Source: Myxococcales bacterium (GTDB lineage Bacteria; Myxococcota_A; Polyangia; Polyangiales; Polyangiaceae). Taken from it: a DNA stretch of 64,000 nt. Made by a program: the position numbers and the translations under genes. Within the stretch, counting starts at the first letter, position 1; each line of letters begins with the position of its first letter. The notes under the pieces were generated by a model. That model had not been told where the DNA came from and did not search any database. It saw only the letters and a list, made by a program, of their open reading frames with translations. Where the stretch lies: positions 250,050-314,049 of the forward strand of contig JADJCA010000011.1 of NCBI GenBank assembly GCA_016703425.1, in the 5' to 3' direction. Positions 25,894 to 45,200 of this stretch are shown in pieces.

Positions 25894-26283
25894 ATGGACG
25901 CACCTGACGCTTCACGCGGCCTCGTGCTCGTCGTCGACGATGACGCGCGAACGGCGCGACGCCTGGCGACGCTGCTCCGGGAAGACGGCTTGGTGGAGGT
26001 CGCCGTCAACGGTGCCGTCGCCATCGGTCGCCTCTCGCGAGAGCCGACGCCTCACGCTCTCGTGACGGACCTGCAAATGCCACTCGCCGACGGCTCGTCG
26101 GTCGTGCGCTACGCTCGCTCACGAGAGCCGGGCATCGTTGTGGTCGTCGTGACCGGCCACCCGAACCTCGCAGGCGATCTCGTGGAGATGTCGCCGGAGG
26201 TGTTCGTGATGCCGAAGCCGCTGGAATACGAGCGCCTGCTGAACGTGCTCGCGGACGCGGTGAAACAACCCCCGCTCGAGTGA
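25894..26283 (+). CDS. Stand-alone CheY-like response regulator receiver
   Basis: 129 aa; LVLVVDDDARTAR ... ALVTDLQMPLADG ... VVVVTGHP receiver motifs. Confidence 0.6.
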   Translation: MDAPDASRGLVLVVDDDARTARRLATLLREDGLVEVAVNGAVAIGRLSREPTPHALVTDLQMPLADGSSVVRYARSREPGIVVVVVTGHPNLAGDLVEMSPEVFVMPKPLEYERLLNVLADAVKQPPLE

Positions 26284-30605: not shown

Positions 30606-30846
30606 TCCGGCCTGCGTCGAGCCCATCTCGGTCACGCGACTGTGCACCACGCGTTCACTTCGCGGTGCGCGCGCGCGTCGACGACCCGTGCGCGACACTC
30701 GCACACGAGGCGCCTGTCTCGCCGAGGTGTCTTTGTATTCCATCCCGATCCAGTAAGAAGGTCTCCCACCGGTAATTTTTCACGCGGTGGCTCGAGAATG
30801 CAGCGCCTTCCCGAAGATCACCGGCCACCGGATCCATGGTGGCCGC

Positions 30847-30862
30847 TGGCACCAGACGTGCT
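30847..30862 (+). promoter_or_regulatory. Candidate sigma-54 (-24/-12) promoter upstream of the Gly-rich cargo gene
   Basis: TGGCAC-cagac-GTGCT gives GG-N10-GC spacing matching TGGCAC-N5-TTGC with one -12 mismatch. It lies about 115 nt upstream of ATG 30977 on the same strand. An FHA/sigma-54 activator is encoded at 49668..51068. Confidence 0.3.
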
Positions 30863-30976
30863 GAAGCCCAACTGACAGCGGAACGTAACGTGATGGGCTC
30901 GCGAGGGACGCGCCCGCTCATGCGTTCGCTGTTCGTGCCCGCGCCTTCAAGCGCGCGCAGATCGTTGGAGGAACGG

Positions 30977-32171
30977 ATGCGGTTTAGTGCTCGTCGCGCC
31001 ATAGAGCGCTCATGCTCGTTGGACGACCTCGACGACGTCCAGGGCGGATGCCATCACCCGAAGATCGAGGACAGCATCGAGATCGACAACGGTGGTCTAG
31101 GCATCTTCGGCCCCAACCAACAACCCTTCTTCGGCGGCGGCATCGGCGTCGGTGGACCTTCGCCGCTCGTCCCCGCGGGCAGCTTGCCCGTGAACGGCAT
31201 CGGTCCCAACGGCGGCCTCGGCGTGCTCGGCAGCGGGCTCCATGGGCCCAACGGCGAAGCCATCGTCGGCTTCGGTCCTCACGGCGAACCGCTCGGCGGA
31301 GTCGGTGGCGTTTTTGGGCCCGACGGTCAGGTCATCGGCGGCATTCCCGGTATGGGTCCGCTCGGAGGTTCACCCTTGAACGGCGCCGGTGTCGTGGGCG
31401 GCTCGCCGCTCGGGGTTGGCGGAGTCGGCGGCGTTGGCAACTTCGCTCCGAACGATTGGAATGGCGCGCTTCAGGCCGTTCATCAGAACGGCGCGAACGG
31501 CGGCGGTGCTGGCGTGGTCGGCGGCGTGGTCGGCGGCGTGCCTGGTGGGGGGGTCTTTGGTGCGGGAGGCAGCGCGCACCCGCTTGGCGATCTAGGTGCC
31601 TTTCGCGCCCAACGCTGGAGCGGGGTTGGGTGCCGCGGGAAATCCGGGAATGATGTACCCGCCCGGTAGCGGCATGGGCGCCGGCAACGGCGTGGGGCCC
31701 GGAGGTGGCCTCGGCGATCTCGGAGCCTTCGGCGTCGGCGGCGCGGGCGCTAACGGTGGAGTCTTCGGTCCGCTCGGCGTCGGTGCGAACGGAGGCGTCT
31801 TCGGCGCACCGGGCGCTCCCGGCGGAGGCATTCTCGGCGTCATCGGCGATCCGAACGGACTCGGCGGCGGCGTTGTGAACGCGGGCGGCATCTTCGGCAA
31901 CGGCGGAGCCGGCGGCGCAGGCGGCATCTTCGGTGCACCGGGCGCGCCCGGCGGAGGCATCTTCGGTGTCGGCGGCAACGGCGGCATCTTCGGCGTCGGT
32001 GCGAACGGTGGCGTGTTCGGTGCGCCGGGCACGGTGAACGGCGGCGGCGTGGGCGCGTCGGGCAACTCGTGGGACGGCTTCTCGCCGAGCAACGGCGTGG
32101 GCGCATCGGGCAACACGGGACTCGCGAATCCGTTCGCGGCGTACGCGCCGTCAGCGGCGATCCCCAAGTGA
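30977..32171 (+). CDS. Glycine-rich repeat protein with N-terminal double-glycine (GG) leader; candidate PCAT cargo; apparent +1 frameshift near 31596-31605
   Basis: GGAGGAA Shine-Dalgarno 5 nt before ATG 30977. Leader MRFSARRAIERSCSLDDLDDVQGG fits the LSxxELxxIxGG consensus (L-7, acidic -8/-9, V-4, GG-1/-2). The body is about 400 aa of GG(I/V)FG, GPNGG and LGDLGAF repeats. The frame-2 ORF (30836..31669) and frame-0 ORF (31596..32171) are both Gly-rich and share the LGDLGAF motif, so they form one gene interrupted by a single-base indel. Confidence 0.55.
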
Positions 32172-32327
32172 TCGAGGCGCGCGCGCTGTAGCGGCGGGCC
32201 CGCTGCGGCGCGCGCGAGCTTGGTCGCACAACCAGGAGCAACGCCTCGCGCTCACCGCGTCGAGGCAGTTTTCAAAGAAACCAGGCACGTCACGACGAGG
32301 CTTCCGAGAGCCACGAGAGACGCGGGA

Positions 32328-32380
32328 GTGTGGGACGGCGCCGCCCATCCACGGGGCGGGTTGGCGGCGTCGTCCCACAC
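32328..32380. repeat. 18-bp imperfect inverted repeat (stem-loop) between the cargo gene and tolC-like gene
   Basis: GTGTGGGACGGCGCCGCC, a 17-nt loop, then GGCGGCGTCGTCCCACAC; 17/18 complementary. No downstream T-run. Confidence 0.5.
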
Positions 32381-32603
32381 TTCCGCGTGTCGTCTCCACG
32401 CCGAGACAACGATCCGTCCTTGTACGGGTGGTTTCTCGGCGTGGATCATTTTGTCCTCTGCGAAGGCTTTCTTCTCGCAAAATTCGTAAGTCATTCTGTA
32501 CGCTTACATTATGCTACCGAGCCGCGTTCTCAGGTCCTTCTCGTGGGCCCTTCGTTTGCAGCAGTCGTGTGCAGTGTCTGCGAATTCAGCAAAATGGCTC
32601 GGC

Positions 32604-33971
32604 ATGCTCGGAGCGCTCGCGGTGTGCGCGACCACGAGCGTTGCGCGCGCAGAGACGCTGACGTTGGCTCAGGCGATCGAGATGGGGCTCTCGAAATCGC
32701 CGACCCTCCGCGGGGCGCGCGCTCGAACCGCAAGTGCCGACGCAAGTGTGACGGCCGCTCAAGGAGGCTATTGGCCGCGCTTCGACGGTACGATCACAGC
32801 CGGAAGCGGCTCGTTTCAACCCATGGCGCAGGGCGTAGTCACCGACACGAAGGCCACGGGTTTCCCGACCCAAACGAGTCGCTCGGTCCAGTACACCTAT
32901 GGCATTCGCGCCGAGGCCGGCCTCCGGTGGACACTTTGGGACTTCGGCAAGACCTCGAACAATGTAGGCGCATCGGAGGCAGGCCTCCGCGGAGCCGCGG
33001 CGAACGAAAAAGAGTCCGTGGCCCAGACCAGCGCACTAGTTGCTAACGCGTACCTCACGTTGTTTCATCAAGAGAAGTTGCTCGAAGTCGCCAAAGCCAC
33101 GCTCTCGTCGCGTGAGGACCTCTTCAAGATCGCCAAGGGCCTCGTCAAGGCGGGCATCCAGCCCCCCGTCGAGGAGCTCCGGTCCGAGGCTCGCTTCGAA
33201 GGAGCCCAACGCGATTTCGCGCGCGCTCGCGCCGAGGCCGAGCAAGCGCGGATGAGCCTTGCGATCGTCCTCGGCCACGACACCCCGACCGCACTGCGGG
33301 TCGTGACCCCGAAGCTGCCTCGCATCTCCCTCGAGCTCAACGCGGCGATGAAGGAAGCGGAGAAGCGCCCCGCCATCACCGCCGCCGAACAGGCCTACGA
33401 GTTCAACAAGAGCCGGGCTGACGCGACGATCGCGCAATACTTCCCCACCCTCTCCGCGCAAGGAACGCTGGCCTACAGCTATTCGGCCAGCGATCCACCG
33501 AGTGGCACGAACGTTCGCTTGGACCAAACCACGGAGCTGCGCAGCGGCACGGGCTCGATTGTCCTCGGCGGTCCGCTCTGGGACCCGTCGCAGAGCGCCG
33601 CCGTAGACAAGGCTCGCGCCGACGCCGCTGCCGCCGAAGCGAGCATCGACGACACGAAGCGTGACGTGAAGTCAGAGGCCGCGCGGTCCGCGATTCAGGT
33701 CAAGCTGGGCCAGGCGCAGCTCGAGCACGCTCGGCTCGCCGAAGAACGCGCGGGCCAGGTGCGCATGGTCATCGAGGAGCGCTACAAGCGCGGCCTCTCA
33801 AACCCGCTCGAGCTCATCGACGCCGAAGACTCGGATCTTTCGGCGCGCATCTCGCGCATTCAAACGGAGCTCGACTATCAGCTCGCCATCGTGCGCCTCT
33901 GCGTCGCGACGGGCCGACCCATCGTCGACGACGCGGACAAGCCCTCCAAGAGCTCGAAGGATTCGCCATGA
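32604..33971 (+). CDS. TolC-like outer membrane efflux protein (OMF)
   Basis: Internal ATG at 32604 gives signal MLGALAVCATTSVARA. Two OEP repeats with the typical pattern (LTLAQAIEMGLSKSPTLRGARA ... YWPRFDG ... QYFPTLSAQGTLAYSY). Confidence 0.7.
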   Translation: MLGALAVCATTSVARAETLTLAQAIEMGLSKSPTLRGARARTASADASVTAAQGGYWPRFDGTITAGSGSFQPMAQGVVTDTKATGFPTQTSRSVQYTYGIRAEAGLRWTLWDFGKTSNNVGASEAGLRGAAANEKESVAQTSALVANAYLTLFHQEKLLEVAKATLSSREDLFKIAKGLVKAGIQPPVEELRSEARFEGAQRDFARARAEAEQARMSLAIVLGHDTPTALRVVTPKLPRISLELNAAMKEAEKRPAITAAEQAYEFNKSRADATIAQYFPTLSAQGTLAYSYSASDPPSGTNVRLDQTTELRSGTGSIVLGGPLWDPSQSAAVDKARADAAAAEASIDDTKRDVKSEAARSAIQVKLGQAQLEHARLAEERAGQVRMVIEERYKRGLSNPLELIDAEDSDLSARISRIQTELDYQLAIVRLCVATGRPIVDDADKPSKSSKDSP

Positions 33972-34944
33972 GCGGGGGCGGCGCCGGTGACATGTTTCGC
34001 GCCGAAGCCGTGGCGCACCACGTCCAGGGCGTCCAGGAAGGCGACATCCTTCGCTACGACCACACGTGGACGCGTCACGCGTACACGCTCGTGGTCATCG
34101 CGTGCCTCGTCGGCTTCGCCTTCATCAGCATCTTCAGCGTCGACGAGTGGGCCACCGGCACATGCGTCGTCCGCATCGACGGTCGGCAGGTGTTGACCGC
34201 GAAGAACCCCGCGACGGTGGACACCGTTGAGGGCCGCACGGGCCAGGCCGTTGAACCCGGCCAGGTCATCGTCATGATGAACGCGCAAGAAGAGGCGAAG
34301 GAGTACGCCAGCGCAACGAAAGAGTTCGAGCTCGCCCTGGTGCGCATGATGCGCGATCCGAACGACGGCGAAGCGAAGGCCAACCTCACGAGCCTGAGGG
34401 CGCGCCGCGAGAGTTCGAAGACGGTTTTCGACGCTCGCCGCATCGTCTCGCCCATCTCCGGGACCATCACGGATGTGCGCGTTCGTCCGGGCCAACGCGT
34501 CAACCCGGGCGATGTCCTCGCGACCGTCGCGCCGAAGTCCGGCGGCTCGCAAGCCTCGATCACGGCCATCGTGCCCGCCGACTACCGACCCATGCTGGAG
34601 CCGGGCCAGAAGATGCGCTTCGAACTCGACGGCTTCCGCTACATCTACGCCGACTTGAAGGTGGAGGAGATCTCCGCCGAGGCTGTGGGTCCCACCGAGG
34701 TCATGCGCATGCTCGGCCAAGAGAAGGCCGACTCCGTCGCCCAAGACCGCGGCGCGAAGGTCCTCGTGTCGGCGAAGCTTCCGTCGTCCACCTTCACGTC
34801 GGAAGGCCAGGCCTTTGGCTATTTCGACGGCCTCACCGGCACCGCCGAGATTCGCGTGCGCCGTGAGCCCATCTTGGTGCTCCTCATCCCGGCGCTCCGC
34901 GCGCTCCTCCCCAACGAGGCTCTCGTGAAAATGCCGGGTGCATC

Positions 34945-34948
<4 letters not shown>
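33968..34948 (+). CDS. HlyD/CvaA-family membrane fusion protein (type I / peptide-bacteriocin secretion adaptor)
   Basis: ATGA overlap with tolC. N-terminal FRAEAVAHHV...W pattern (the CvaA-like FRxEA motif), then one TM, a coiled-coil and beta-barrel regions; 326 aa. Confidence 0.65.
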
Positions 34949-37733
<2,785 letters not shown>

Positions 37734-37755
<22 letters not shown>

Positions 37756-38102
37756 GCAGCCGGCCGCCGACGCCGAGTGCGCCGCCGCAGGGCGCGATGC
37801 CCGGTGCTGTCATCGGCTCGCGGCCGCCGCCGTCGCTTCACTTTGGCGACGAGCACGCGACCCTCGCGCGCGGGCCCAAGCCGCCGTTGCCGCCGCCCCG
37901 CGGCAGCACGCCGCCGGGCCAAAGCCGCGCGCCCACCGGAGCGCAGACGACGGCGGGCCGCGACGTGCGCCCACCGGCGCTCCGCGCCATCGGCGGCGGT
38001 GCCACGCCCGATGGCGGAGGGGCGCAGTTTGAGGCGGCCGACGATGCGCCGACGCTCAGCGAGAAACAGTTCGAGAACCTCTGGAGGTCGTCGGCCGGAT
38101 GA
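37734..38102 (+). CDS. Pro-rich 122-aa ORF; either a separate small protein or the frameshifted continuation of the PCAT tail
   Basis: It shares the PQGAM motif with the PCAT tail. The reading frame upstream of its ATG encodes AQERALAQAQMEAQQ (same style as the tail). Its stop overlaps the next gene start (ATGA). Confidence 0.3.
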
Positions 38103-39055
38103 AACATTCCACTCTTCTCAAGTTGGTCGGAATCGTGGCGACCGTTCTTGGGGCGCCGCTGCTCGGCGTCTTGATGACGCCCAAACGCGAGAACGTCGCG
38201 AAGGCCGAGGAGGCGCAGACGGAAGCGGTGACGTCGGCGACGGCGGCGGCCAAGCCCATTCCCACCAGCGATTTCGTCGGCGTGCTGCTTTCGCAGCAGA
38301 TGGCCACCATCTCGTCGTACGCCGACAGCCGCGTGATGTCGCTTGAGGTCAAAGTCGGTCAGCGCATCCACAAGGGACAGAAGCTCGTCGTCCTCGACCC
38401 TCGCTCGACGCAGCAAGAGCTCGAAGGCGCCAAGGGCGCGCTCGCCGCCGCCGGCGGCCAGGCCGGCGCCGCGGCCGCCGAGGCCCGCTTCGCGAGCCAA
38501 CGGGCCAACCGAAGAAACGAGACCATCGACCTCGGCGGCGGACGAAAGATGTCCCTCGTCTCCGGCGAAGATCAGGGCCAGGCGCTCTCCGACCGCGCCG
38601 CCGCAGCGGGACGTGCAGCCTCCGCGGCAGGCTCGATGGCGCAGGCGCGCGCACGGATCAAGCAGCTCGAGCTCGCCCTCGAGAACATGGAGCCGATGGC
38701 GCCCTTCGACGGCGTCGTGCAGCAGATCATGGTCGAGACCGGAACGACGATTCACAACGGCCAGCCGCTCGTTCGGCTCGTCGGTGGCCAAGGGCTGCGC
38801 GCAAAGATCGCGATCCCGGAGGAGGCCGCTGGCGTTTGGCAAGGCCGTCGACGCGCGCAGCTCGACGTCGACATTCAAGGCCAGACGCGCACATTTTGGG
38901 CGGTCATCGATCAGGTGGCCCCGGAGGTTGAACCGGCCTCACGCTCCTTCTTCATTGAGGGACCAGTACCGGTGACGCCAGAAATGTGCGGCGGCGATTG
39001 CGTGATGCTCGGTGGGCGACCTGTGAAAGCGAGCCTCATTTCCGACAAGGAGTGA
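38099..39055 (+). CDS. Second periplasmic adaptor / HlyD-family membrane fusion protein
   Basis: N-terminal TM (LLKLVGIVATVLGAPLLGVLM); biotin-lipoyl-like hairpin (MSLEVKVGQRIHKGQKLVVLD ... FDGVVQQIMVETGTTIHNGQPLVRLV); beta-barrel C-terminus. Confidence 0.55.
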   Translation: MKHSTLLKLVGIVATVLGAPLLGVLMTPKRENVAKAEEAQTEAVTSATAAAKPIPTSDFVGVLLSQQMATISSYADSRVMSLEVKVGQRIHKGQKLVVLDPRSTQQELEGAKGALAAAGGQAGAAAAEARFASQRANRRNETIDLGGGRKMSLVSGEDQGQALSDRAAAAGRAASAAGSMAQARARIKQLELALENMEPMAPFDGVVQQIMVETGTTIHNGQPLVRLVGGQGLRAKIAIPEEAAGVWQGRRRAQLDVDIQGQTRTFWAVIDQVAPEVEPASRSFFIEGPVPVTPEMCGGDCVMLGGRPVKASLISDKE

Positions 39056-39091
39056 GCCCGCGCGCCGCCACGTGCGATACTCCATGTCGCC

Positions 39092-40456
39092 GTGACGACC
39101 CGCGAAGCAGGCGCCCTGGTGGCAGGACGGTACCGGCTCGAGCGACCGCTCGGCGCCGGTGGGATGGGCGAGGTGTGGGTCGCGACGAACATCGTGACGT
39201 CGGGCCGCGTCGCCTTGAAGTTCTTGAAGCCCGAATACGCCAAGGTGCCCGATCTGCGGCTGCGCTTTGTGCGTGAGGCGCGCGCCGCGAGCGCCGTGAG
39301 TCACCCGAACATCGTCACGGTTCACGATGTGCTCGACCTCGACAGCGAGTCGCCAGTGATGGTCATGGAGCTGCTGCAGGGCGAGGCCCTGAGCGAGCGA
39401 CTCGCGCGCGAGCGAGCGTTGACGCTCGGCGAGGTCGCTCGCCTGCTCGTGCCCGCGCTCCACGGACTTCAGGCGGCCCATCGGGCCGGGATCGTTCATC
39501 GCGACCTCAAGCCCGACAATCTCTTCATCGTGCGGCATCCCGACGGGACCGAACAGACCAAGGTGCTCGACTTCGGCATCGCGAAGATGGTCGCCGCCGG
39601 CGAAGAGGACGTGGGAGGCGCGCTGACCAAGACGGGCGCCATGATGGGAACGCCCTATTACATGTCGCCGGAGCAGGCCTTCGGCGAAAAGAGCATCGAC
39701 CATCGCTCGGACGTTTGGTCGATGGGCATCATCTTCTACCAGTGCTTGACGGGCATCCTGCCTACGGAAGCGGGCAATTTTGGCCAGATCGTGAAGATCA
39801 TCACGATGCTGGGCATTCCTCCCATCGGCGAGCGCGCGCCGTCGTTGCCGTCTGACGTCGCCTCCGTCATCACGCGTATGTTGTCGCGCCTTGCCGCTGA
39901 CAGGCCCGCCGATCTCGCGGACGTGGCCGCCATCCTGCAACCCTACGGCTCGGGAAGCGTCGCCGACACCAAGTACGTCGTCGCCGTCGCGGGAAAGATG
40001 CCCTCGTCGGGGCAAGGTCGGGCGCTGACGGCGCCGAGCTCCAACGGCATGGCGGCGTCCCTCGTCGAGCCGCCCCTCGTCTCACGACGGTGGGCCTGGT
40101 GGTTGATGGGGGGCGTGGCCACGCTTAGCGCGGTCACGCTGGCTGTCCAGCAGCGCGGCGCCACGACGACCAGCCCCCTGCAGCCGCCCGCAAGCACGGC
40201 GCAAGTGATGGCCGCTCCACCGGAAGCGAAGACCATCATGCCGCTTGCGGAACTCGCTGAGCGAGACGCGAGCGCGCCCGATACCGGTGCAACGACGACG
40301 CGCTTGCCGGTTAAGCTCGTGGCCAAACCGGAGGCGACGCTCGCGTCACCGGTTCGACCGCAGGCATCGAACGCGCCCTCGCCGAAGGCAGCAGAGGGTG
40401 CGACGCCCGCTGGGAGCGGACGCGTGTCCGACCGCCTCGCGCCAGCGCCCTTCTGA
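39092..40456 (+). CDS. Ser/Thr protein kinase (active, Hanks-type) with C-terminal TM and Pro/Ala-rich region
   Basis: GAGGMGEVW glycine loop; VALKFL lysine; HRDLKPDNLF catalytic loop; DFGIAK; GTPYYMSPE. TM WWLMGGVATLSAVTLAV follows. Confidence 0.75.
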   Translation: MTTREAGALVAGRYRLERPLGAGGMGEVWVATNIVTSGRVALKFLKPEYAKVPDLRLRFVREARAASAVSHPNIVTVHDVLDLDSESPVMVMELLQGEALSERLARERALTLGEVARLLVPALHGLQAAHRAGIVHRDLKPDNLFIVRHPDGTEQTKVLDFGIAKMVAAGEEDVGGALTKTGAMMGTPYYMSPEQAFGEKSIDHRSDVWSMGIIFYQCLTGILPTEAGNFGQIVKIITMLGIPPIGERAPSLPSDVASVITRMLSRLAADRPADLADVAAILQPYGSGSVADTKYVVAVAGKMPSSGQGRALTAPSSNGMAASLVEPPLVSRRWAWWLMGGVATLSAVTLAVQQRGATTTSPLQPPASTAQVMAAPPEAKTIMPLAELAERDASAPDTGATTTRLPVKLVAKPEATLASPVRPQASNAPSPKAAEGATPAGSGRVSDRLAPAPF

Positions 40457-40468
40457 TACCTTTGCCCC

Positions 40469-41467
40469 GTGCGCGTCGCCACCGGCCTCTTCGTGTTAGC
40501 CATGACGCTCGCGGTGACGGGCGCCTCGGCGCAAGACGACGACAAGAAGACGCAGGCGCGCACCGAGTTTCAGCGCGGCAGCGAGCTCGCGAAGGCGGAG
40601 TCTTGGGCGGACGCACTCGCGGCGTTCCAGCACTCGCACGAGCTCTTGGCGCACCCAAGCACGCTCTTCAACATCGGCATGTGCGAGCGCGTCCTCGGTC
40701 GCTTCACGCGAGCGCGCGAGAACATGAAGCGCGCCCTTGCCGACGCGTCGCTACCGGCGTCCCTGGCCGAGGAGGCGCGCACCTATCTCGCGGAGATCGA
40801 GCGCCTCTTGGCGCACGTCGAGGTCGAGCTGTCGCCGGCCGAGGCCGGCATCGCCGTCGATGGGAGGCCGCTCTTTACGGAGACAAGCGCGGCGGGCGGG
40901 AGCGCGCCGGTGCTCATCGCTGGCCTTCGGCCGGCGGCGCCCGGCGAGTCTGCCCCTAGCAGCTCGTTTGAGCTCGTCGCCGACCCAGGGACGCGCGTCA
41001 TTGTCCTGTCTCGCAAGGGCTTCCGAGACATCGTTCGGCAGGAGCGCCTAGCGCCGGGCGCGCGGACGAAGCTGAAGCTGGAGCTCGAACGTCTGCCCGC
41101 CACCTTGCGCATCGAGGCCAACGTCGGTGCGGCGACCGTTCGCGTCAACGACGTCGATGTCGGCGCCGCGCCGCTTGAGGTCTCGCGCCCGGCTGGCATC
41201 TACCGCGTCGTCGTTCACAAGCCCGGGTTCGTGCCCCACGAGATGAACGTGACCGTCGGCCCCGGCGACGAGGCGAAGGTTGATGCCTCGCTCGCGGAAG
41301 AGCGCGTCCCGGTCACGAAGCGGTGGTGGTTCTGGGCCGGCGCGGCGGGCGTTCTGGCCGGCGGCGCCGCCCTAACGTACGCCCTCACGAGGCCAGAGCC
41401 CTCCCCTCCTCCCTACAACGGCGGCAGCACCGGTTGGGTCGTCGGTGGGCAATCGCTGCGCTGGTAG
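40469..41467 (+). CDS. Secreted PEGA-domain protein with TPR-like N-terminus and C-terminal TM anchor
   Basis: Signal peptide MRVATGLFVLAMTLAVTGASA; PEGA-like motif YRVVVHKPGFVPHEMNVTVGPGDEAKV; C-terminal TM WWFWAGAAGVLAGGAAL. Confidence 0.5.
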   Translation: MRVATGLFVLAMTLAVTGASAQDDDKKTQARTEFQRGSELAKAESWADALAAFQHSHELLAHPSTLFNIGMCERVLGRFTRARENMKRALADASLPASLAEEARTYLAEIERLLAHVEVELSPAEAGIAVDGRPLFTETSAAGGSAPVLIAGLRPAAPGESAPSSSFELVADPGTRVIVLSRKGFRDIVRQERLAPGARTKLKLELERLPATLRIEANVGAATVRVNDVDVGAAPLEVSRPAGIYRVVVHKPGFVPHEMNVTVGPGDEAKVDASLAEERVPVTKRWWFWAGAAGVLAGGAALTYALTRPEPSPPPYNGGSTGWVVGGQSLRW

Positions 41468-41468
41468 C

Positions 41469-42371
41469 TCAGAAGCCGCAGGCGTCGCGGCAGCGAGCCT
41501 GCTGGCAGAGTGAAAAGACTCCGTATTCGGGCAGCCTGGTCGATGCCTCGTTGCACTTCTCGCTGCACGACTCGTTGCCCTTGCAGTCGAGGCTACAGGC
41601 ATCGGCGCGGGCGACCTCCGGCAAGGCGTGCCATGTTGCGAACTCGTCACCGCAGCGGTCAAACCAACACGCGACGCAAGGGTCCAGACGGCTCGGATCG
41701 TCGAGGCAATCGCGCGCGCAAGAGACGTTGACGCACGCCAGGTATTCGCCGTAACGCGGGATGCCGGCGGGAATGCGATCAAAACACGATGTGAAGGTGT
41801 TCTCGTCGCAGTACGTGCACCCGAGCATCGACTTGCAGGCGACGTCATTCTCACAGGCTCTTCGACTCTCGCAGCAACGTGAAACCATGCACGCGCGACA
41901 GCGAACGCGCCCTGGTGTCTCCGTCGGTGGCGCGGTGCAAGAAGCCCGGTCCACGCGGTAGAAGTCATCGACCCCGGAGCAGGCGTCGTCGAGCAAGGGA
42001 TGGGCGCTCTTGCCCGACGGGCAACCGTTGCAGCTGCTCCGCGCCGAGGCGCGACAGCGAGAAAGATCCGCCGCCGCGCTCTCTGCCGCCGAGCCTTTGG
42101 GCTGGGGACATGTGTCGGCGCAGGCTCCGCCGTCTTCGCAGGACCGCGAGGCGCAGCGGTCCCACGCGGCGCACGTCGGCTCAGCGTTGCATCGCGAGGT
42201 GGCGAAGGCACAGCTTGCGGCGAGGCACGTGCCGCACGCGTCGAGAGGCGCCGCGCTCGCGTCGTCGCGATCGAGTGCGCCGGAGGGGTCACCGGTCGTG
42301 CGAGCGCAGGCCGTGGCCACGCCCATGAGCGCCGCGACCACCGCGAGGCCGCGACCCCGCCACGAGGGCAT
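41469..42371 (-). CDS. Cysteine-rich secreted/lipoprotein, function unknown (about 40 Cys in 300 aa)
   Basis: Convergent to the PEGA gene. Internal ATG at 42371 gives signal MPSWRGRGLAVVAALMGVATACA. The body has many CxxC/CxxxC pairs. Confidence 0.4.
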   Translation of the reverse strand: MPSWRGRGLAVVAALMGVATACARTTGDPSGALDRDDASAAPLDACGTCLAASCAFATSRCNAEPTCAAWDRCASRSCEDGGACADTCPQPKGSAAESAAADLSRCRASARSSCNGCPSGKSAHPLLDDACSGVDDFYRVDRASCTAPPTETPGRVRCRACMVSRCCESRRACENDVACKSMLGCTYCDENTFTSCFDRIPAGIPRYGEYLACVNVSCARDCLDDPSRLDPCVACWFDRCGDEFATWHALPEVARADACSLDCKGNESCSEKCNEASTRLPEYGVFSLCQQARCRDACGF

Positions 42372-42426
42372 CGGACGAAACGAGGGGCCTACCATCGCCG
42401 AGAAAGACTGGTATCACATCGAGTCG

Positions 42427-43863
42427 ATGAGGGCTTTCCGGCGCGCTGGAAGTTTCGCGCTCCTCGCCCTCGCGGGGGGCGCGTGTTCCGACGATGCGCC
42501 ACCCCGCGCCCAGTGGCTGCTGGTCCTTGATACGACGGCTCCGCTCGTCGACGACCTTCGTCGCGACGCGACCTTGTCGGCGGACTTGGCCGTCGACACC
42601 TTGCGCATCGACATCTTGGCCGCACGCCGCGATGGGCCGGCGGAGGTCACCGAGAGCCGCGTGATCGTCGCGCCAAGTCCCGAGAGCTTTCCCCTATCGC
42701 TCGGCATCGTGCCCGACGCCGACCACGGTGCATTGGTGCGCGTTCGCCTCTTCCGTGGCGCGCTCGCAGCGACGGGCCGTGGCCCCGCCGGCGAGACGGT
42801 GACGGACCCCTTTCCCGAAACGACGATCGATCGCCTGGTGCACCTCGGCTCCGCCACTGGCGTGCCCGTCGCGAAGGTGGTGCTCGACGCCGATTGTCTC
42901 GGTGTTCCGTCGAGCTTCGGCGAGGTTCGTCGCACTTGTCTCGACGGGGGAACGCGGAGCGGGGACCCCGCCGACGGCATTGTCGTCACAGCCGATGCGC
43001 CGCAAGCTCGGTTCGCGAGCGTGGTGCCCTTCGCCAGGGCCGCGCCTTGCGGTGGCGCGGCCCCCAAGGGCGCGGTGTGCGTCCCCGGTGGATTTACCGT
43101 CCTCGGGGACCGACGCCTCGAAGGCTTCTCCGAGGGCGGCATGGTCCCGCTTCGGCCGGTGCTCCTGAGCCCGTTCTTCCTCGACGAAACGGAGTTTACC
43201 GTCGGACGTTTTCGGGCGCTCGTGGCGAGCGGCAAACTAAAGACTGCGCCGCCCAAGACGCGGCTCAGTACGGACATTTTTCGTGCAGATTGCACATGGA
43301 CGGGCGCGGCCGACGGCAGCGCCGACGCGCTTCCGCTCAACTGCATCTCGGTGGCCTCGGCGGAGGCTGCCTGCGCCGCCGAAGGCGGCACCTTGCCCTC
43401 GGAGGCCGAGTGGGAGCACGCAGCTCGCGGGCGCGGAGAGCGGCGCAGCTATCCGTGGGGCGAGGAAGCTCCTTCTTGCTGCACGGCGAGCGTTTCGCGA
43501 GAAAACCCGGTTACAACCCTCGTGTTGTGCAAAGGACGAGGCCCAGAAGCGGCGGGGTCGCATCGGCCGACGGCGGGGTGCCCGGGCGGCGGTGATCTGT
43601 CGCGGGACGGGGTCTCCGACTTGGGCGGGAGCCTCGCGGAGGTGCTGCGCGACAAGTTCCGCCCCTACGAGAGCAATTGCCTCGGCCCCAGCGGAATCGC
43701 GCGCGATCCCGTCTGCGCAGATCCGGCTGCGCCCTTCCGCGTTCGCCGCGGCGGGGAGTGGTCGGCCGGGACGCTGATCGCCATGAGCGCGCTCCGTCAC
43801 GCGACGGTCGGGGACGGCGACAACGTGACGGGCTTTCGATGCCGCTATCCGGGGACGCCATGA
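42427..43863 (+). CDS. Lipoprotein with C-terminal FGE-sulfatase (SUMF1/EgtB/PvdO-type) domain
   Basis: ORF 42010..43863; ATG at 42427 gives lipobox ALLALAGGAC. The C-terminal half has FGE-sulfatase landmarks (PLNCISVASAEAACAAEGGTLPSEAEWEHAARG ... RVRRGGEWS). Confidence 0.6.
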   Translation: MRAFRRAGSFALLALAGGACSDDAPPRAQWLLVLDTTAPLVDDLRRDATLSADLAVDTLRIDILAARRDGPAEVTESRVIVAPSPESFPLSLGIVPDADHGALVRVRLFRGALAATGRGPAGETVTDPFPETTIDRLVHLGSATGVPVAKVVLDADCLGVPSSFGEVRRTCLDGGTRSGDPADGIVVTADAPQARFASVVPFARAAPCGGAAPKGAVCVPGGFTVLGDRRLEGFSEGGMVPLRPVLLSPFFLDETEFTVGRFRALVASGKLKTAPPKTRLSTDIFRADCTWTGAADGSADALPLNCISVASAEAACAAEGGTLPSEAEWEHAARGRGERRSYPWGEEAPSCCTASVSRENPVTTLVLCKGRGPEAAGSHRPTAGCPGGGDLSRDGVSDLGGSLAEVLRDKFRPYESNCLGPSGIARDPVCADPAAPFRVRRGGEWSAGTLIAMSALRHATVGDGDNVTGFRCRYPGTP

Positions 43864-45200
43864 CTGCCGCACGCATCGGCGCGGGCTTCATGCTCATCGC
43901 CTTAGGCGCCTGCGCCGTCGACGAGCCGGCTCGTAGTCAGTGGCGGGTGGCTGTATCGACGGACGCGCCCGTCCCGTTGTTGGCCGATCGCCTGCTCGTA
44001 GAGGTCTTGGACGACAAGGGTTCGCTCGCGTGCTCCGCATGCTCGCGGCTCTTCGGCGTAGCGCGCGAGACAACCTGGCCCGTCTCGTTTGGCGTCGTTC
44101 CCACGGGGCGAGAGCGCTTCGTCCGCGCGAGGCTCTACCGAGGCGCGCGCATCGGCGCGAACGGACTCCCGGAAGGGGCGATGCTCATCGACGGCCTTGG
44201 CGCGCTCGAGGCCCCACACGGCGTCACCGACGTCGCGCTACGACTCTCGATGCTGTGTTTTGGTCATGCGGCGGAGCCTACTCGCCCGGCAGCGTGCGAT
44301 CCGGCGACCGGTGCGACGACGCCGCCGCTCACGCTCAAGGGCGACGCGCCACTCGAGGTAGGCCAGGCGGCGATCGCTGTGGAGTCGGAGTGCGATGGGG
44401 TCCCGAGCGGCATGGCCTGCGTGAAGGGCGGGGTGTTCGTCCTCGGCGATTCGCGCACCGTTGGGAGCGTCGCGCCAACGACGCCCGAGCGCTTGGTGCG
44501 CATCGATGCGTTCGCGATGGACAAGGACGAGATGACGGTCCGTGAGGCGCGTTCGCTGCTCGCAAAGGTGGGCGGCGACGACCGGCCCGGCCGTCGCGGC
44601 GAAAACGTGTGCACGTTCACCACCGAGCCCAGCGACAACGACGAGCTCCCCCTCAATTGCGTCAGTCACGCGCTCGCAGGCGCGCTCTGCAACGCTCTAG
44701 GCAAGCGCCTACCCACGGAGGCTGAGTGGGAATACGCGGCCGGCAGTCGTGGCGAAGAGCGCGAAACCCCGTGGGGCGACATTGGCAGTGCGTGTTTCGA
44801 TGCCGTCCTCGCGCGCGGGCGCTCTCCCGCAGAAGGCGGGCCAAATCAGACTGACTCGACGTCGTGCCGCGTCGTACCTGGCGAGCCCACGCGCCCCTTC
44901 GGACCTGTACGAGGCGGCAGCGCGGGCGACGTGACGCGAGAGGGCCTTCGAAACCTTGGGGGCAACCTCACCGAGTGGGTCAGTGGCGCGCCAGCCCCCT
45001 ACGACGACGCCTGCTTCGGGCCAGCGGGTGCGCTGACGAACCCCGAGTGCAAGGCGCGCGATGAACAGAGGCTCGTCCGCGGCGGCCACTGGGCTCTTGC
45101 GCCGACGTTCTCCGCCACGACCTTCCGCGGAGTCCAACGCCGTGGCCTCGGAGACAGCTTCACCGGCGTGCGATGCGTCATGCCGTTCGGACGGAAGTAG
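43860..45200 (+). CDS. Paralogous lipoprotein with FGE-sulfatase domain
   Basis: ATGA overlap with the upstream paralog. Lipobox FMLIALGAC. Same C-terminal domain (LPLNCVSHALAGALCNALGKRLPTEAEWEYAAGSRG ... RLVRGGHW). Confidence 0.6.
   Translation: MTAARIGAGFMLIALGACAVDEPARSQWRVAVSTDAPVPLLADRLLVEVLDDKGSLACSACSRLFGVARETTWPVSFGVVPTGRERFVRARLYRGARIGANGLPEGAMLIDGLGALEAPHGVTDVALRLSMLCFGHAAEPTRPAACDPATGATTPPLTLKGDAPLEVGQAAIAVESECDGVPSGMACVKGGVFVLGDSRTVGSVAPTTPERLVRIDAFAMDKDEMTVREARSLLAKVGGDDRPGRRGENVCTFTTEPSDNDELPLNCVSHALAGALCNALGKRLPTEAEWEYAAGSRGEERETPWGDIGSACFDAVLARGRSPAEGGPNQTDSTSCRVVPGEPTRPFGPVRGGSAGDVTREGLRNLGGNLTEWVSGAPAPYDDACFGPAGALTNPECKARDEQRLVRGGHWALAPTFSATTFRGVQRRGLGDSFTGVRCVMPFGRK

What the first reader, a model, noticed from the sequence alone, without database searches (positions are those of the whole stretch)
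31560..31670. Apparent +1 frameshift splitting the Gly-rich cargo gene
The frame-2 ORF (to 31669) and frame-0 ORF (from 31596) overlap by about 75 nt. Glycine-rich coding switches frame exactly at ...HPLGDLGAF | APNAGAGLGAAG..., and the motif LGDLGAF recurs downstream in the new frame. After the switch point, frame 2 degenerates into non-repeat sequence (RAQRWSGVGCRGKSGNDVPAR*). This is the signature of a single-nucleotide indel in a GC-rich repetitive tract. The cause could be assembly error, recent pseudogenisation, or slippage-prone repeats.
Basis: seen in the sequence. Interest (0 to 1): 0.5.

Follow-up and report, generated by a model that had tools for sequence, protein, structure and literature searches.

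The report
One-base insertion splits secreted-protein gene
A single extra T cuts one 397-codon gene for a glycine-rich exported protein into two overlapping reading frames in this assembly only, so it is either a consensus error or a very recent strain-private mutation and is ordinary either way.

Summary
Glycine-rich coding runs in frame 2 up to about 31603 and in frame 0 from 31605. The two ORFs (30977-31669 and 31596-32171) overlap by 74 nt.

The cause is now exact. The window reads GCC TTT CGC where four other assemblies of the same species population (99.6% and about 95-97% identical) read GCC TTC GCG. That is one extra T in a TT run, at 31601-31603, codon 209. In those assemblies the gene is one uninterrupted ORF of 394-397 codons. 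It is therefore one gene, not two.

The T is the only net frame-breaking indel in 32 kb compared with the closest relative. It does not lie in a repeat or in the nearby G7 run.

The gene encodes an orphan protein. It has a 24-residue double-glycine leader and a 373-residue mature part that is 36.5% Gly and rich in GxxxG motifs. It sits just upstream of a TolC-like / HlyD-like / C39-peptidase ABC exporter, so it is the presumptive cargo.

Programmed frameshifting is not supported. Sequence alone cannot separate a consensus error in this MAG from a recent real mutation; I put these at roughly 50:45. Interest is low.

The parts
30977..31048 (+). Start codon and 24-residue double-glycine leader, MRFSARRAIERSCSLDDLDDVQGG. 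A GGAGGA Shine-Dalgarno sequence lies 4 nt upstream of the ATG.
   Evidence: Gene calls in L001, L002 and L005 start at the equivalent ATG, as does the NCBI protein P0001. The last 14 residues, RSCSLDDLDDVQGG, match the MccV signal RTLTLNELDSVSGG (quoted in PMC12219008) at 8 of 14 positions, compared by eye. The SD sequence was read directly.
31049..31603 (+). N-terminal 185 residues of the mature glycine-rich protein, in native frame 2 (codons 25-209).
   Evidence: Translation. This stretch is collinear with the intact ORF of the relatives.
31601..31603 (+). TTT run holding the one extra T (the relatives have TT). This is the frameshift point, at codon 209 (Phe).
   Evidence: Alignments. It is the only net frame-breaking indel in 32.2 kb compared with GCA_964269505.1.
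31604..31669 (+). Out-of-frame tail of 21 codons (RAQRWSGVGCRGKSGNDVPAR) plus the TAG stop. This is the end of the 230-aa product annotated as MBK6694852.1.
   Evidence: The Arg-rich composition contrasts with the Arg-free mature protein.
31605..32171 (+). C-terminal 188 codons of the same gene, now in frame 0. They carry GG[IV]FG/GxxxG repeats and a non-repeat tail, ...NSWDGFSPSNGVGASGNTGLANPFAAYAPSAAIPK.
   Evidence: There is no leader and no convincing Shine-Dalgarno sequence before GTG 31596 or ATG 31650. Six of the 7 window-private SNPs here are synonymous in frame 0.
32511..33971 (+). TolC-like outer-membrane efflux protein.
   Evidence: Pfam OEP, E = 1.6e-48. TIGR01844 hit below its curated cut-off.
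33968..34948 (+). HlyD-like membrane-fusion (adaptor) protein.
   Evidence: Pfam HlyD_3, E = 2.4e-13.
34945..37755 (+). Peptidase-C39-containing ABC exporter (PCAT), the presumptive processor and exporter of the cargo. Its Q-rich C-terminal extension is itself truncated.
   Evidence: Pfam Peptidase_C39 3.2e-32, ABC_membrane and ABC_tran. The best NCBIfam hit is TIGR03796, below its cut-off. The PDB double-glycine protease domain 6mpz matches at 2.4e-28, with the CGAA(C/S)LAM and HWNF.HFVV motifs aligned. Tail truncation.

Best explanation
What is shown: positions 30977-32171 are one gene. It encodes a 397-residue precursor made of a 24-residue double-glycine leader and a 373-residue mature part. 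The mature part is 32.9 kDa, acidic, 36.5% Gly and rich in glycine-zipper (GxxxG) motifs. In this assembly one extra T (TT->TTT, 31601-31603) after codon 208 moves the rest of the gene into the +1 frame.

Consequence of the sequence as written: it would give a 230-residue product, namely the leader, 185 native residues and 21 junk residues. A leaderless 3' ORF is left with no good ribosome-binding site.

What is inferred:
- From the gene's position next to a TolC-like / HlyD-like / C39-ABC exporter and from the leader, the intact protein is the exporter's cargo. It would be cleaved after GG24 and secreted.
- On origin, the extra T is slightly more likely to be a residual consensus error of a long-read metagenome-assembled genome than a real mutation. 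A very recent mutation private to this strain is almost as likely. In either case it is an ordinary indel, not two genes and not a recoding signal.
For: One gene:
- Four independent assemblies carry a single ORF of 394-397 codons. They are GCA_964269505.1, GCA_020051655.1 (partial ORF that reads through the site), ERZ27258471 and SRR14092380. Their sequence is GCC TTC GCG at the junction.
- The glycine-codon frame switch falls at the same point.

Cargo role:
- The exporter domains are present.
- The C39 domain keeps its catalytic motifs.
- The leader resembles the MccV signal.

Recent event or artefact:
- The downstream part is fully open.
- Six of its 7 private SNPs are third-position synonymous in frame 0. 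By my binomial calculation, errors spread at random over codon positions would give this with p of about 0.007.

Artefact lean:
- The source is an NCBI 'MAG: Myxococcales bacterium' on a 496-kb contig, which implies long reads.
- Residual indels that fragment gene calls are the typical error of Nanopore assemblies even after polishing (PMC9262707). The pipeline I suspect is described in PMC8012365.
- The T is seen in this assembly only, and the truncated protein's cluster has one member on one contig.
- One frame-breaking indel in 32 kb is about the rate I recall for such MAGs (my own knowledge, not checked here).
Against: Against an artefact:
- The assembly is otherwise clean. There is no other net frame-breaking indel in 32.2 kb against the 99.65-99.68% identical genome.
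- No other split gene was found among the suspicious adjacent ORF pairs of the 64-kb window that I checked.
- The site is a 2->3 T run in unique sequence, not a long homopolymer. The nearby G7 run (31547-31553) has the same length as in L001 (shown) and no indel against L008.
- The window shows real private variation 90-155 nt downstream, so this strain differs locally.
- The same lineage carries a second 1-nt frame break, in the exporter's tail, shared with an independent assembly. That could mean the locus is decaying.

Other gaps:
- The link from the locus tag IPG50 to the Nanopore study is from memory and was not verified.
- No cargo function has been tested.
Confidence: 0.5

Rival explanations
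1. The extra T is real. It would be a recent mutation private to this strain that truncates (pseudogenises) the cargo gene. The strain would export at most a 206-residue fragment after leader cleavage (185 native and 21 junk residues) and would lose the C-terminal GG[IV]FG repeat half.
For: - It is the only net frame-breaking indel in 32 kb, so the consensus is of good quality.
- The insertion is not in a long homopolymer.
- The window has 20 other private single-position differences in the 13-kb comparison (19 substitutions and one indel-associated site). Those I checked in the cargo, OEP and HlyD genes are mostly synonymous, so this is a distinct real strain.
- A dense private SNP patch lies at 31692-31757, next to the site.
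- The exporter's C-terminal tail is also frame-broken in this lineage and in the independent assembly GCA_964269505.1.
- Accessory toxin-like cargo genes are often lost. This is general knowledge and was not tested here.
Against: - The allele is seen in one assembly only, and its protein cluster has one member.
- All four other assemblies are intact.
- The downstream ORF shows no decay.
- The source is a MAG, very probably from long reads.
Confidence: 0.44
2. Programmed +1 ribosomal frameshifting. tRNA-Phe would slip from UUU to UUC at GCC-UUU-C, helped by the Shine-Dalgarno-like AGGUG 2 nt upstream, so that the full-length protein is still made.
For: UUU_C allows perfect re-pairing in the +1 frame. 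An AGGTG sits at 31594-31598, a spacing that superficially resembles the prfB site (sequence read; the prfB comparison is from my own knowledge).
Against: - The shift is not conserved. The closest relatives (99.6% and about 95-97% identical) encode the protein in one frame with the same upstream sequence.
- The next 0-frame codon, CGC, makes up 58% of Arg codons in the window's genes, so no pause is expected.
- There is no stop or rare codon at the A site.
Confidence: 0.02
3. There are two real, separately expressed genes: a 230-aa leader-bearing protein and a 173-191-aa glycine-rich partner.
For: NCBI annotates the first ORF as a protein, MBK6694852.1. Two-peptide bacteriocins do exist (Cdz, PMC5380434).
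Against: - The relatives have a single ORF.
- ORF2 has no leader and no credible Shine-Dalgarno sequence or start.
- The 21-residue tail of ORF1 is compositionally foreign.
- ORF2 products from the ATG starts are not in the protein collection. The GTG/TTG starts may have been translated without an initial Met, so that part of the look-up is uninformative.
Confidence: 0.02

Closest known systems
Frameshift-fragmented gene calls in long-read (Nanopore) assemblies and MAGs (PMC9262707; PMC12007338)
   Same: A single-base indel splits one gene into two overlapping ORFs. It is private to one long-contig MAG. The halves are collinear with intact homologues. The truncated half has entered the databases as a 'hypothetical protein'.
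   Different: The indel is an insertion in a 2-nt T run, not a length error in a long homopolymer. The assembly shows no other such error in 32 kb. The sequencing platform of this MAG was not verified here.
Class II microcins and their PCAT / MFP / TolC type I exporters (MccV/CvaC system; PMC12219008)
   Same: An N-terminal double-glycine leader resembling the MccV signal. The gene lies next to a C39-peptidase ABC transporter, a membrane-fusion protein and a TolC-like protein. The composition is glycine-rich and Cys-poor.
   Different: - The mature part is 373 residues (32.9 kDa), against about 5-10 kDa for microcins.
- The leader is 24 residues, against 15-18.
- There is no sequence homology to any microcin.
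- No immunity gene was identified.
- The host is a Polyangiales myxobacterium, not an Enterobacterales species.
- Antibacterial activity is untested.
Cdz contact-dependent glycine-zipper bacteriocins of Caulobacter (CdzC/CdzD with CdzAB; PMC5380434)
   Same: A secreted protein dominated by Gly and small hydrophobic residues, with extended GxxxGxxxG motifs (48 GxxxG and 17 GxxxGxxxG here). It is encoded beside a type I secretion ABC/MFP pair.
   Different: - Cdz proteins are 84-86 residues and act as a pair, whereas this is one 397-residue precursor.
- G+A+V+I is 60% here against 75% in Cdz.
- HMMER detected no homology.
- No CdzI-like immunity gene was identified.
prfB-type programmed +1 frameshift
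   Same: A +1 shift at a U-rich slippery codon with a Shine-Dalgarno-like element just upstream.
   Different: The shift is not conserved in the closest relatives, and there is no slow or stop codon in the A site. The resemblance is coincidental.

Membership tests
Gene disrupted by a single-base indel (pseudogene or assembly error) | Two same-strand ORFs in different frames that overlap or abut | tested here: met
   30977-31669 (frame 2) and 31596-32171 (frame 0) overlap by 74 nt.
Gene disrupted by a single-base indel (pseudogene or assembly error) | Both halves align collinearly to one uninterrupted homologue, with a single indel at the junction | tested here: met
   L001, L002, L005 and L008 each have one ORF. 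The difference is one T at 31601-31603.
Gene disrupted by a single-base indel (pseudogene or assembly error) | Read-level support that separates a real mutation from a consensus error | not testable with these tools
   No reads are available. The allele was not found in any other assembly.
Programmed +1 ribosomal frameshift | The frameshift site is conserved among orthologues | tested here: not met
   Relatives at 99.6% and about 95-97% identity are in one frame.
Programmed +1 ribosomal frameshift | A slow-to-decode or stop codon in the 0-frame A site | tested here: not met
   The next codon, CGC, is 58% of Arg codons in 25 genes of the window.
PCAT (C39 peptidase ABC exporter) substrate with double-glycine leader | N-terminal leader ending in GG (or GA/GS) with a conserved hydrophobic and acidic pattern | tested here: inconclusive
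   RSCSLDDLDDVQGG against the MccV signal RTLTLNELDSVSGG gives 8 of 14 identical, by eye. There is no Pfam or NCBIfam leader hit. The leader fails the published regex at position -12 (C instead of I/L).
PCAT (C39 peptidase ABC exporter) substrate with double-glycine leader | An adjacent ABC transporter with an intact C39 peptidase domain (catalytic Cys and His) | tested here: met
   Peptidase_C39 at 3.2e-32, covering model positions 3-131 of 133. The alignment to 6mpz keeps the CGAA and HFVV motifs.
PCAT (C39 peptidase ABC exporter) substrate with double-glycine leader | Cleavage after GG and export shown experimentally | not testable with these tools
   This needs co-expression and mass spectrometry.
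Class II microcin | Small size (about 5-10 kDa mature; screens use 150 aa or less) | tested here: not met
   The mature part is 373 aa and 32.9 kDa. The definition comes from PMC12219008.
Class II microcin | Antibacterial activity and a cognate immunity protein | not tested
   No immunity gene was identified, and there is no assay.
Cdz-like glycine-zipper bacteriocin | Sequence homology to CdzC/CdzD, and a small two-protein toxin | tested here: not met
   HMMER against 1.84 billion representatives found only the query itself and one 3719-aa Gly-rich protein. This is a single gene of 397 codons.

The most novel reading that the evidence does not exclude
The extra T is real, and the gene is the founding member of an undescribed class of large (about 33 kDa) glycine-zipper proteins. 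These would carry a double-glycine leader and be exported by a PCAT in Polyangiales. The gene is mosaic between co-occurring lineages, and this strain would be a natural loss or truncation variant, that is, a weapon-loss polymorphism within a population. A low level of +1 slippage at UUU-C might partly rescue the protein.
Probability: 0.3. Interest if true: 0.3.

Novelty: already known. Interest (0 to 1): 0.12.

Why it matters
The main value is practical. The 230-aa 'hypothetical protein' MBK6694852.1 in nr is the front half of a 397-aa protein plus 21 junk residues.

The finding also shows that an orphan gene with no database homologue cannot be repaired by reference-based frameshift correction. 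Only population-level comparison reveals the break.

The biology around it is moderately interesting but is not what the finding claimed. It is a 33-kDa glycine-zipper protein with a microcin-like leader, next to a PCAT exporter in an uncultured myxobacterium, and it is mosaic between lineages.

Tried and rejected
Searches for cargo homologues outside this species found nothing useful:
- Word-indexed search of 5.8 billion proteins: only the window's own truncated product.
- HMMER against 1.84 billion representatives: the query itself and one unrelated 3719-aa Gly-rich protein.
- Also negative: genome contigs, metagenome contigs by protein, PDB, Pfam and NCBIfam.

Looking for the TTT or TT allele elsewhere:
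- An allele-agnostic DNA pattern found 0 hits in JGI metagenome contigs.
- A junction-peptide search returned nothing, not even the query's own protein, so it is uninformative.
- Exact look-ups of the window's own products in the gene-position index failed, so the source MAG is not indexed there.

Orthologous exporter loci: those in other Polyangiales (L012-L015, 60-72% identity) have no Gly-rich ORF nearby, so they give no deeper orthologue test.

Gene conversion as the source of the private SNP patch: no donor sequence exists in the 64-kb window and there is no second Gly-rich gene. A donor elsewhere in the genome is not excluded.

Other frameshifts in the window as a gauge of assembly quality: a GC3 frame scan plus Pfam on 10 suspicious ORFs found none. 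The HlyIII gene is complete, and the two FGE-sulfatase genes are complete tandem paralogues.

Structure: single-sequence AlphaFold2 of the 230-aa product gave mean pLDDT 37, so it was unusable and no fold search was run.

Provenance: I could not verify the link to the Danish activated-sludge Nanopore MAG study. Neither IPG50 nor the protein accession appears in its supplements, although Polyangiaceae MAGs are listed there.

Full report
**1. The observation**

The window has 68% G+C. Between 30977 and 32171 on the + strand, glycine codons (GGN) make up 27-43% of frame-2 codons up to about 31600. After that they make up 37-50% of frame-0 codons, and the other frames stay near zero.

The mechanical ORFs are 30836..31669 (frame 2) and 31596..32171 (frame 0). 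They overlap by 74 nt. Frame 0 is closed by a TAG at 31593-31595, and frame 2 ends at a TAG at 31667-31669.

The heptapeptide LGDLGAF ends the in-frame part of the first ORF and recurs 42 residues later in the second. The 21-residue tail of the first ORF holds five Arg. The rest of the mature protein holds none.

**2. The cause is one extra T**

An exact-protein look-up with the neighbouring HlyD-like gene returned ten contigs from other assemblies that carry the same locus. Four of them cover the junction:
- L001/L097/L098 (GCA_964269505.1), 99.65-99.68% identical to the window over 32 kb;
- L008 (GCA_020051655.1), 99.6% identical;
- L002/L100 (ERZ27258471), about 95-97% identical;
- L005 (SRR14092380), about 95-97% identical.

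In three of them the gene callers found one ORF of 394-397 codons between the CBS-domain gene and the outer-membrane gene. In L008 the ORF runs off the contig end but reads through the site. Their translations read ...HPLGDLGAFAPNAGAGLGAAG....

At the nucleotide level they have GCC TTC GCG where the window has GCC TTT CGC. The window carries one extra T in the run at 31601-31603. Codon 209 is still Phe, and the native frame resumes at 31605.

The indel is not in a tandem repeat. It is not in the G7 run at 31547-31553, which has the same length in L001. The surrounding 11- and 13-mers are unique in the window.

**3. The gene and its neighbours**

The relatives' gene calls and the NCBI protein start at ATG 30977. 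A GGAGGA sequence lies 4 nt upstream.

The first 24 residues, MRFSARRAIERSCSLDDLDDVQGG, end in a double glycine. The last 14 residues match the microcin V signal RTLTLNELDSVSGG (quoted in PMC12219008) at 8 positions, including R-14, L-10, L-7, D-6, V-4, G-2 and G-1.

Properties of the mature part:
- 373 residues, 32.9 kDa, pI 4.5;
- 36.5% Gly, one Cys, no Arg;
- 48 GxxxG and 17 GxxxGxxxG motifs;
- nine GG[IV]FG units, seven of them downstream of the break.

Downstream lie three exporter genes:
- an OEP/TolC-like gene (32511-33971);
- a HlyD-like adaptor (33968-34948);
- an ABC transporter with an N-terminal Peptidase_C39 domain (34945-37755).

The C39 domain aligns to the solved 'double glycine motif protease domain' 6mpz at E = 2.4e-28, with the Cys and His motifs in place. 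Gene order plus leader make the glycine-rich protein the presumptive cargo. This is an inference; nothing has been tested.

The protein has no detectable homologue outside this species population. Related exporters in other Polyangiales have no such gene nearby.

**4. What the frameshift does**

As written, the sequence gives a 230-residue product. It consists of the leader, 185 native residues and 21 out-of-frame residues. This is exactly the NCBI protein MBK6694852.1 ('MAG: hypothetical protein IPG50_21975 [Myxococcales bacterium]', contig of 496,200 bp).

The 3' part has no leader and no convincing ribosome-binding site at any candidate start. It would not be exported even if it were translated.

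**5. Artefact or real mutation?**

Points favouring a consensus error:
- The source is a MAG on a half-megabase contig, which implies long reads.
- Indels that fragment genes are the typical residual error of Nanopore assemblies (PMC9262707).
- From memory, the IPG50 locus tag belongs to the activated-sludge MAG set. That set was built with CANU, Racon, two rounds of Medaka and one Illumina Racon round (PMC8012365). I could not verify this link.
- The T is private to this assembly.
- The downstream ORF is untouched.

Points favouring a real mutation:
- Across 32.2 kb compared with GCA_964269505.1, this is the only net frame-breaking indel. The other differences are a 3-nt indel at 25988, a 24-nt CAG-repeat difference and a net 3-nt difference around 40390.
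- No other split gene turned up among the candidates checked in the 64-kb window.
- The change is an insertion in a 2-nt run, not a long-homopolymer error.
- The window is a real, distinct strain. In the 13-kb multi-assembly comparison it has 21 private differences.
- Eight of those lie within 157 nt: the T and seven SNPs at 31692-31757. Six of the seven are synonymous third positions in frame 0. Random error would rarely give this; my binomial estimate is p of about 0.007.
- The SNPs show that frame 0 was under purifying selection when they arose. The frame break is therefore younger than they are, or not real.

I cannot separate the two without reads. I put them at about 0.50 (artefact) and 0.44 (real).

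**6. Rejected readings**

Two separate genes: refuted by the intact ORFs in the relatives.

Programmed +1 frameshifting: UUU_C with an AGGUG 2 nt upstream looks superficially like the prfB site. However, the shift is absent from relatives that share the same upstream sequence. The next 0-frame codon, CGC, is the commonest Arg codon in the window, at 58%.

Slippage in repeats: the site is not repetitive.

**7. Comparison with known systems**

The event is an ordinary single-base frameshift. The gene works like a PCAT substrate, and its leader and export genes resemble the class II microcin arrangement. It fails the size criterion for a microcin by about four-fold.

Its composition recalls the Cdz glycine-zipper toxins of Caulobacter (PMC5380434). 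There is no homology to them, and it is a single large protein rather than two small ones. It should not be filed in either family.

**8. Verdict**

The cause is pinned to one T. The origin of that T is unresolved but mundane either way. Interest is low (0.12).

The useful outcome is a corrected gene model and a caution about the truncated database entry.

Noticed in passing
window 37697-37755, continuing to 38102: The exporter (PCAT) gene has a second 1-nt frame break, in its Q-rich C-terminal extension. The window and the independent assembly GCA_964269505.1 have GGG (37700-37702). L002 shows GGGG in the nucleotide alignment, and L003 and L004 read through the site in frame. This gives 936/944 aa plus an orphan 122-codon ORF, against 1052-1055 aa ending in an ATGA overlap with the next gene. 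The lost tail ends ...QFENLWRSSAG, which resembles ...QIGNYWRNR in a 72%-identical Polyangiaceae exporter (L015).
   Followed up: partly
window 37663-37696: The CAG (poly-Q) tract in the exporter tail differs by 24 nt between the window and its 99.6% relative. It also differs in length in L002-L004. A long Q-rich extension after the ATPase domain is unusual for this transporter type.
   Followed up: partly
window 31405-32063: The cargo gene is mosaic between lineages, with dense, mostly third-position SNP patches. L002/L005 differ at 31405-31552, L003/L004 at 31940-32063, and the window privately at 31692-31757. There is also a 9-nt in-frame repeat indel at 31911-31919. This suggests recombination among diverged alleles in the population.
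   Followed up: partly
window 31547-31553: A G7 homopolymer lies inside the gene, 50 nt upstream of the break. It has the same length in L001, and L008 shows no indel there, so it is not the source of the frameshift even though it is the likelier place for a sequencing error.
   Followed up: yes
window 32178-32216 and 32317-32391: Two strong inverted repeats lie between the cargo stop codon and the outer-membrane gene. Their arms are 17 nt (88% complementary) and 34 nt (85% complementary). They may be terminator or attenuator hairpins, but neither is followed by a T run.
   Followed up: no
window 38099-41467: Directly after the exporter come a second membrane-fusion-type adaptor (318 aa), a Ser/Thr protein kinase and a PEGA-domain protein. 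The order is conserved in all related contigs. Whether they belong to the secretion system is unknown.
   Followed up: no
window 42010-45200: Two tandem paralogous genes each carry a complete FGE-sulfatase domain. Their mechanical ORFs overlap by 186 nt, which looks like a frameshift. It is not one: the relatives call two genes of 515-521 and 446 aa.
   Followed up: yes
window 40345-40399: A cluster of substitutions plus a net 3-nt indel against GCA_964269505.1 lies near the 3' end of the kinase gene (39092-40456). It stays in frame (454 against 453 aa).
   Followed up: no
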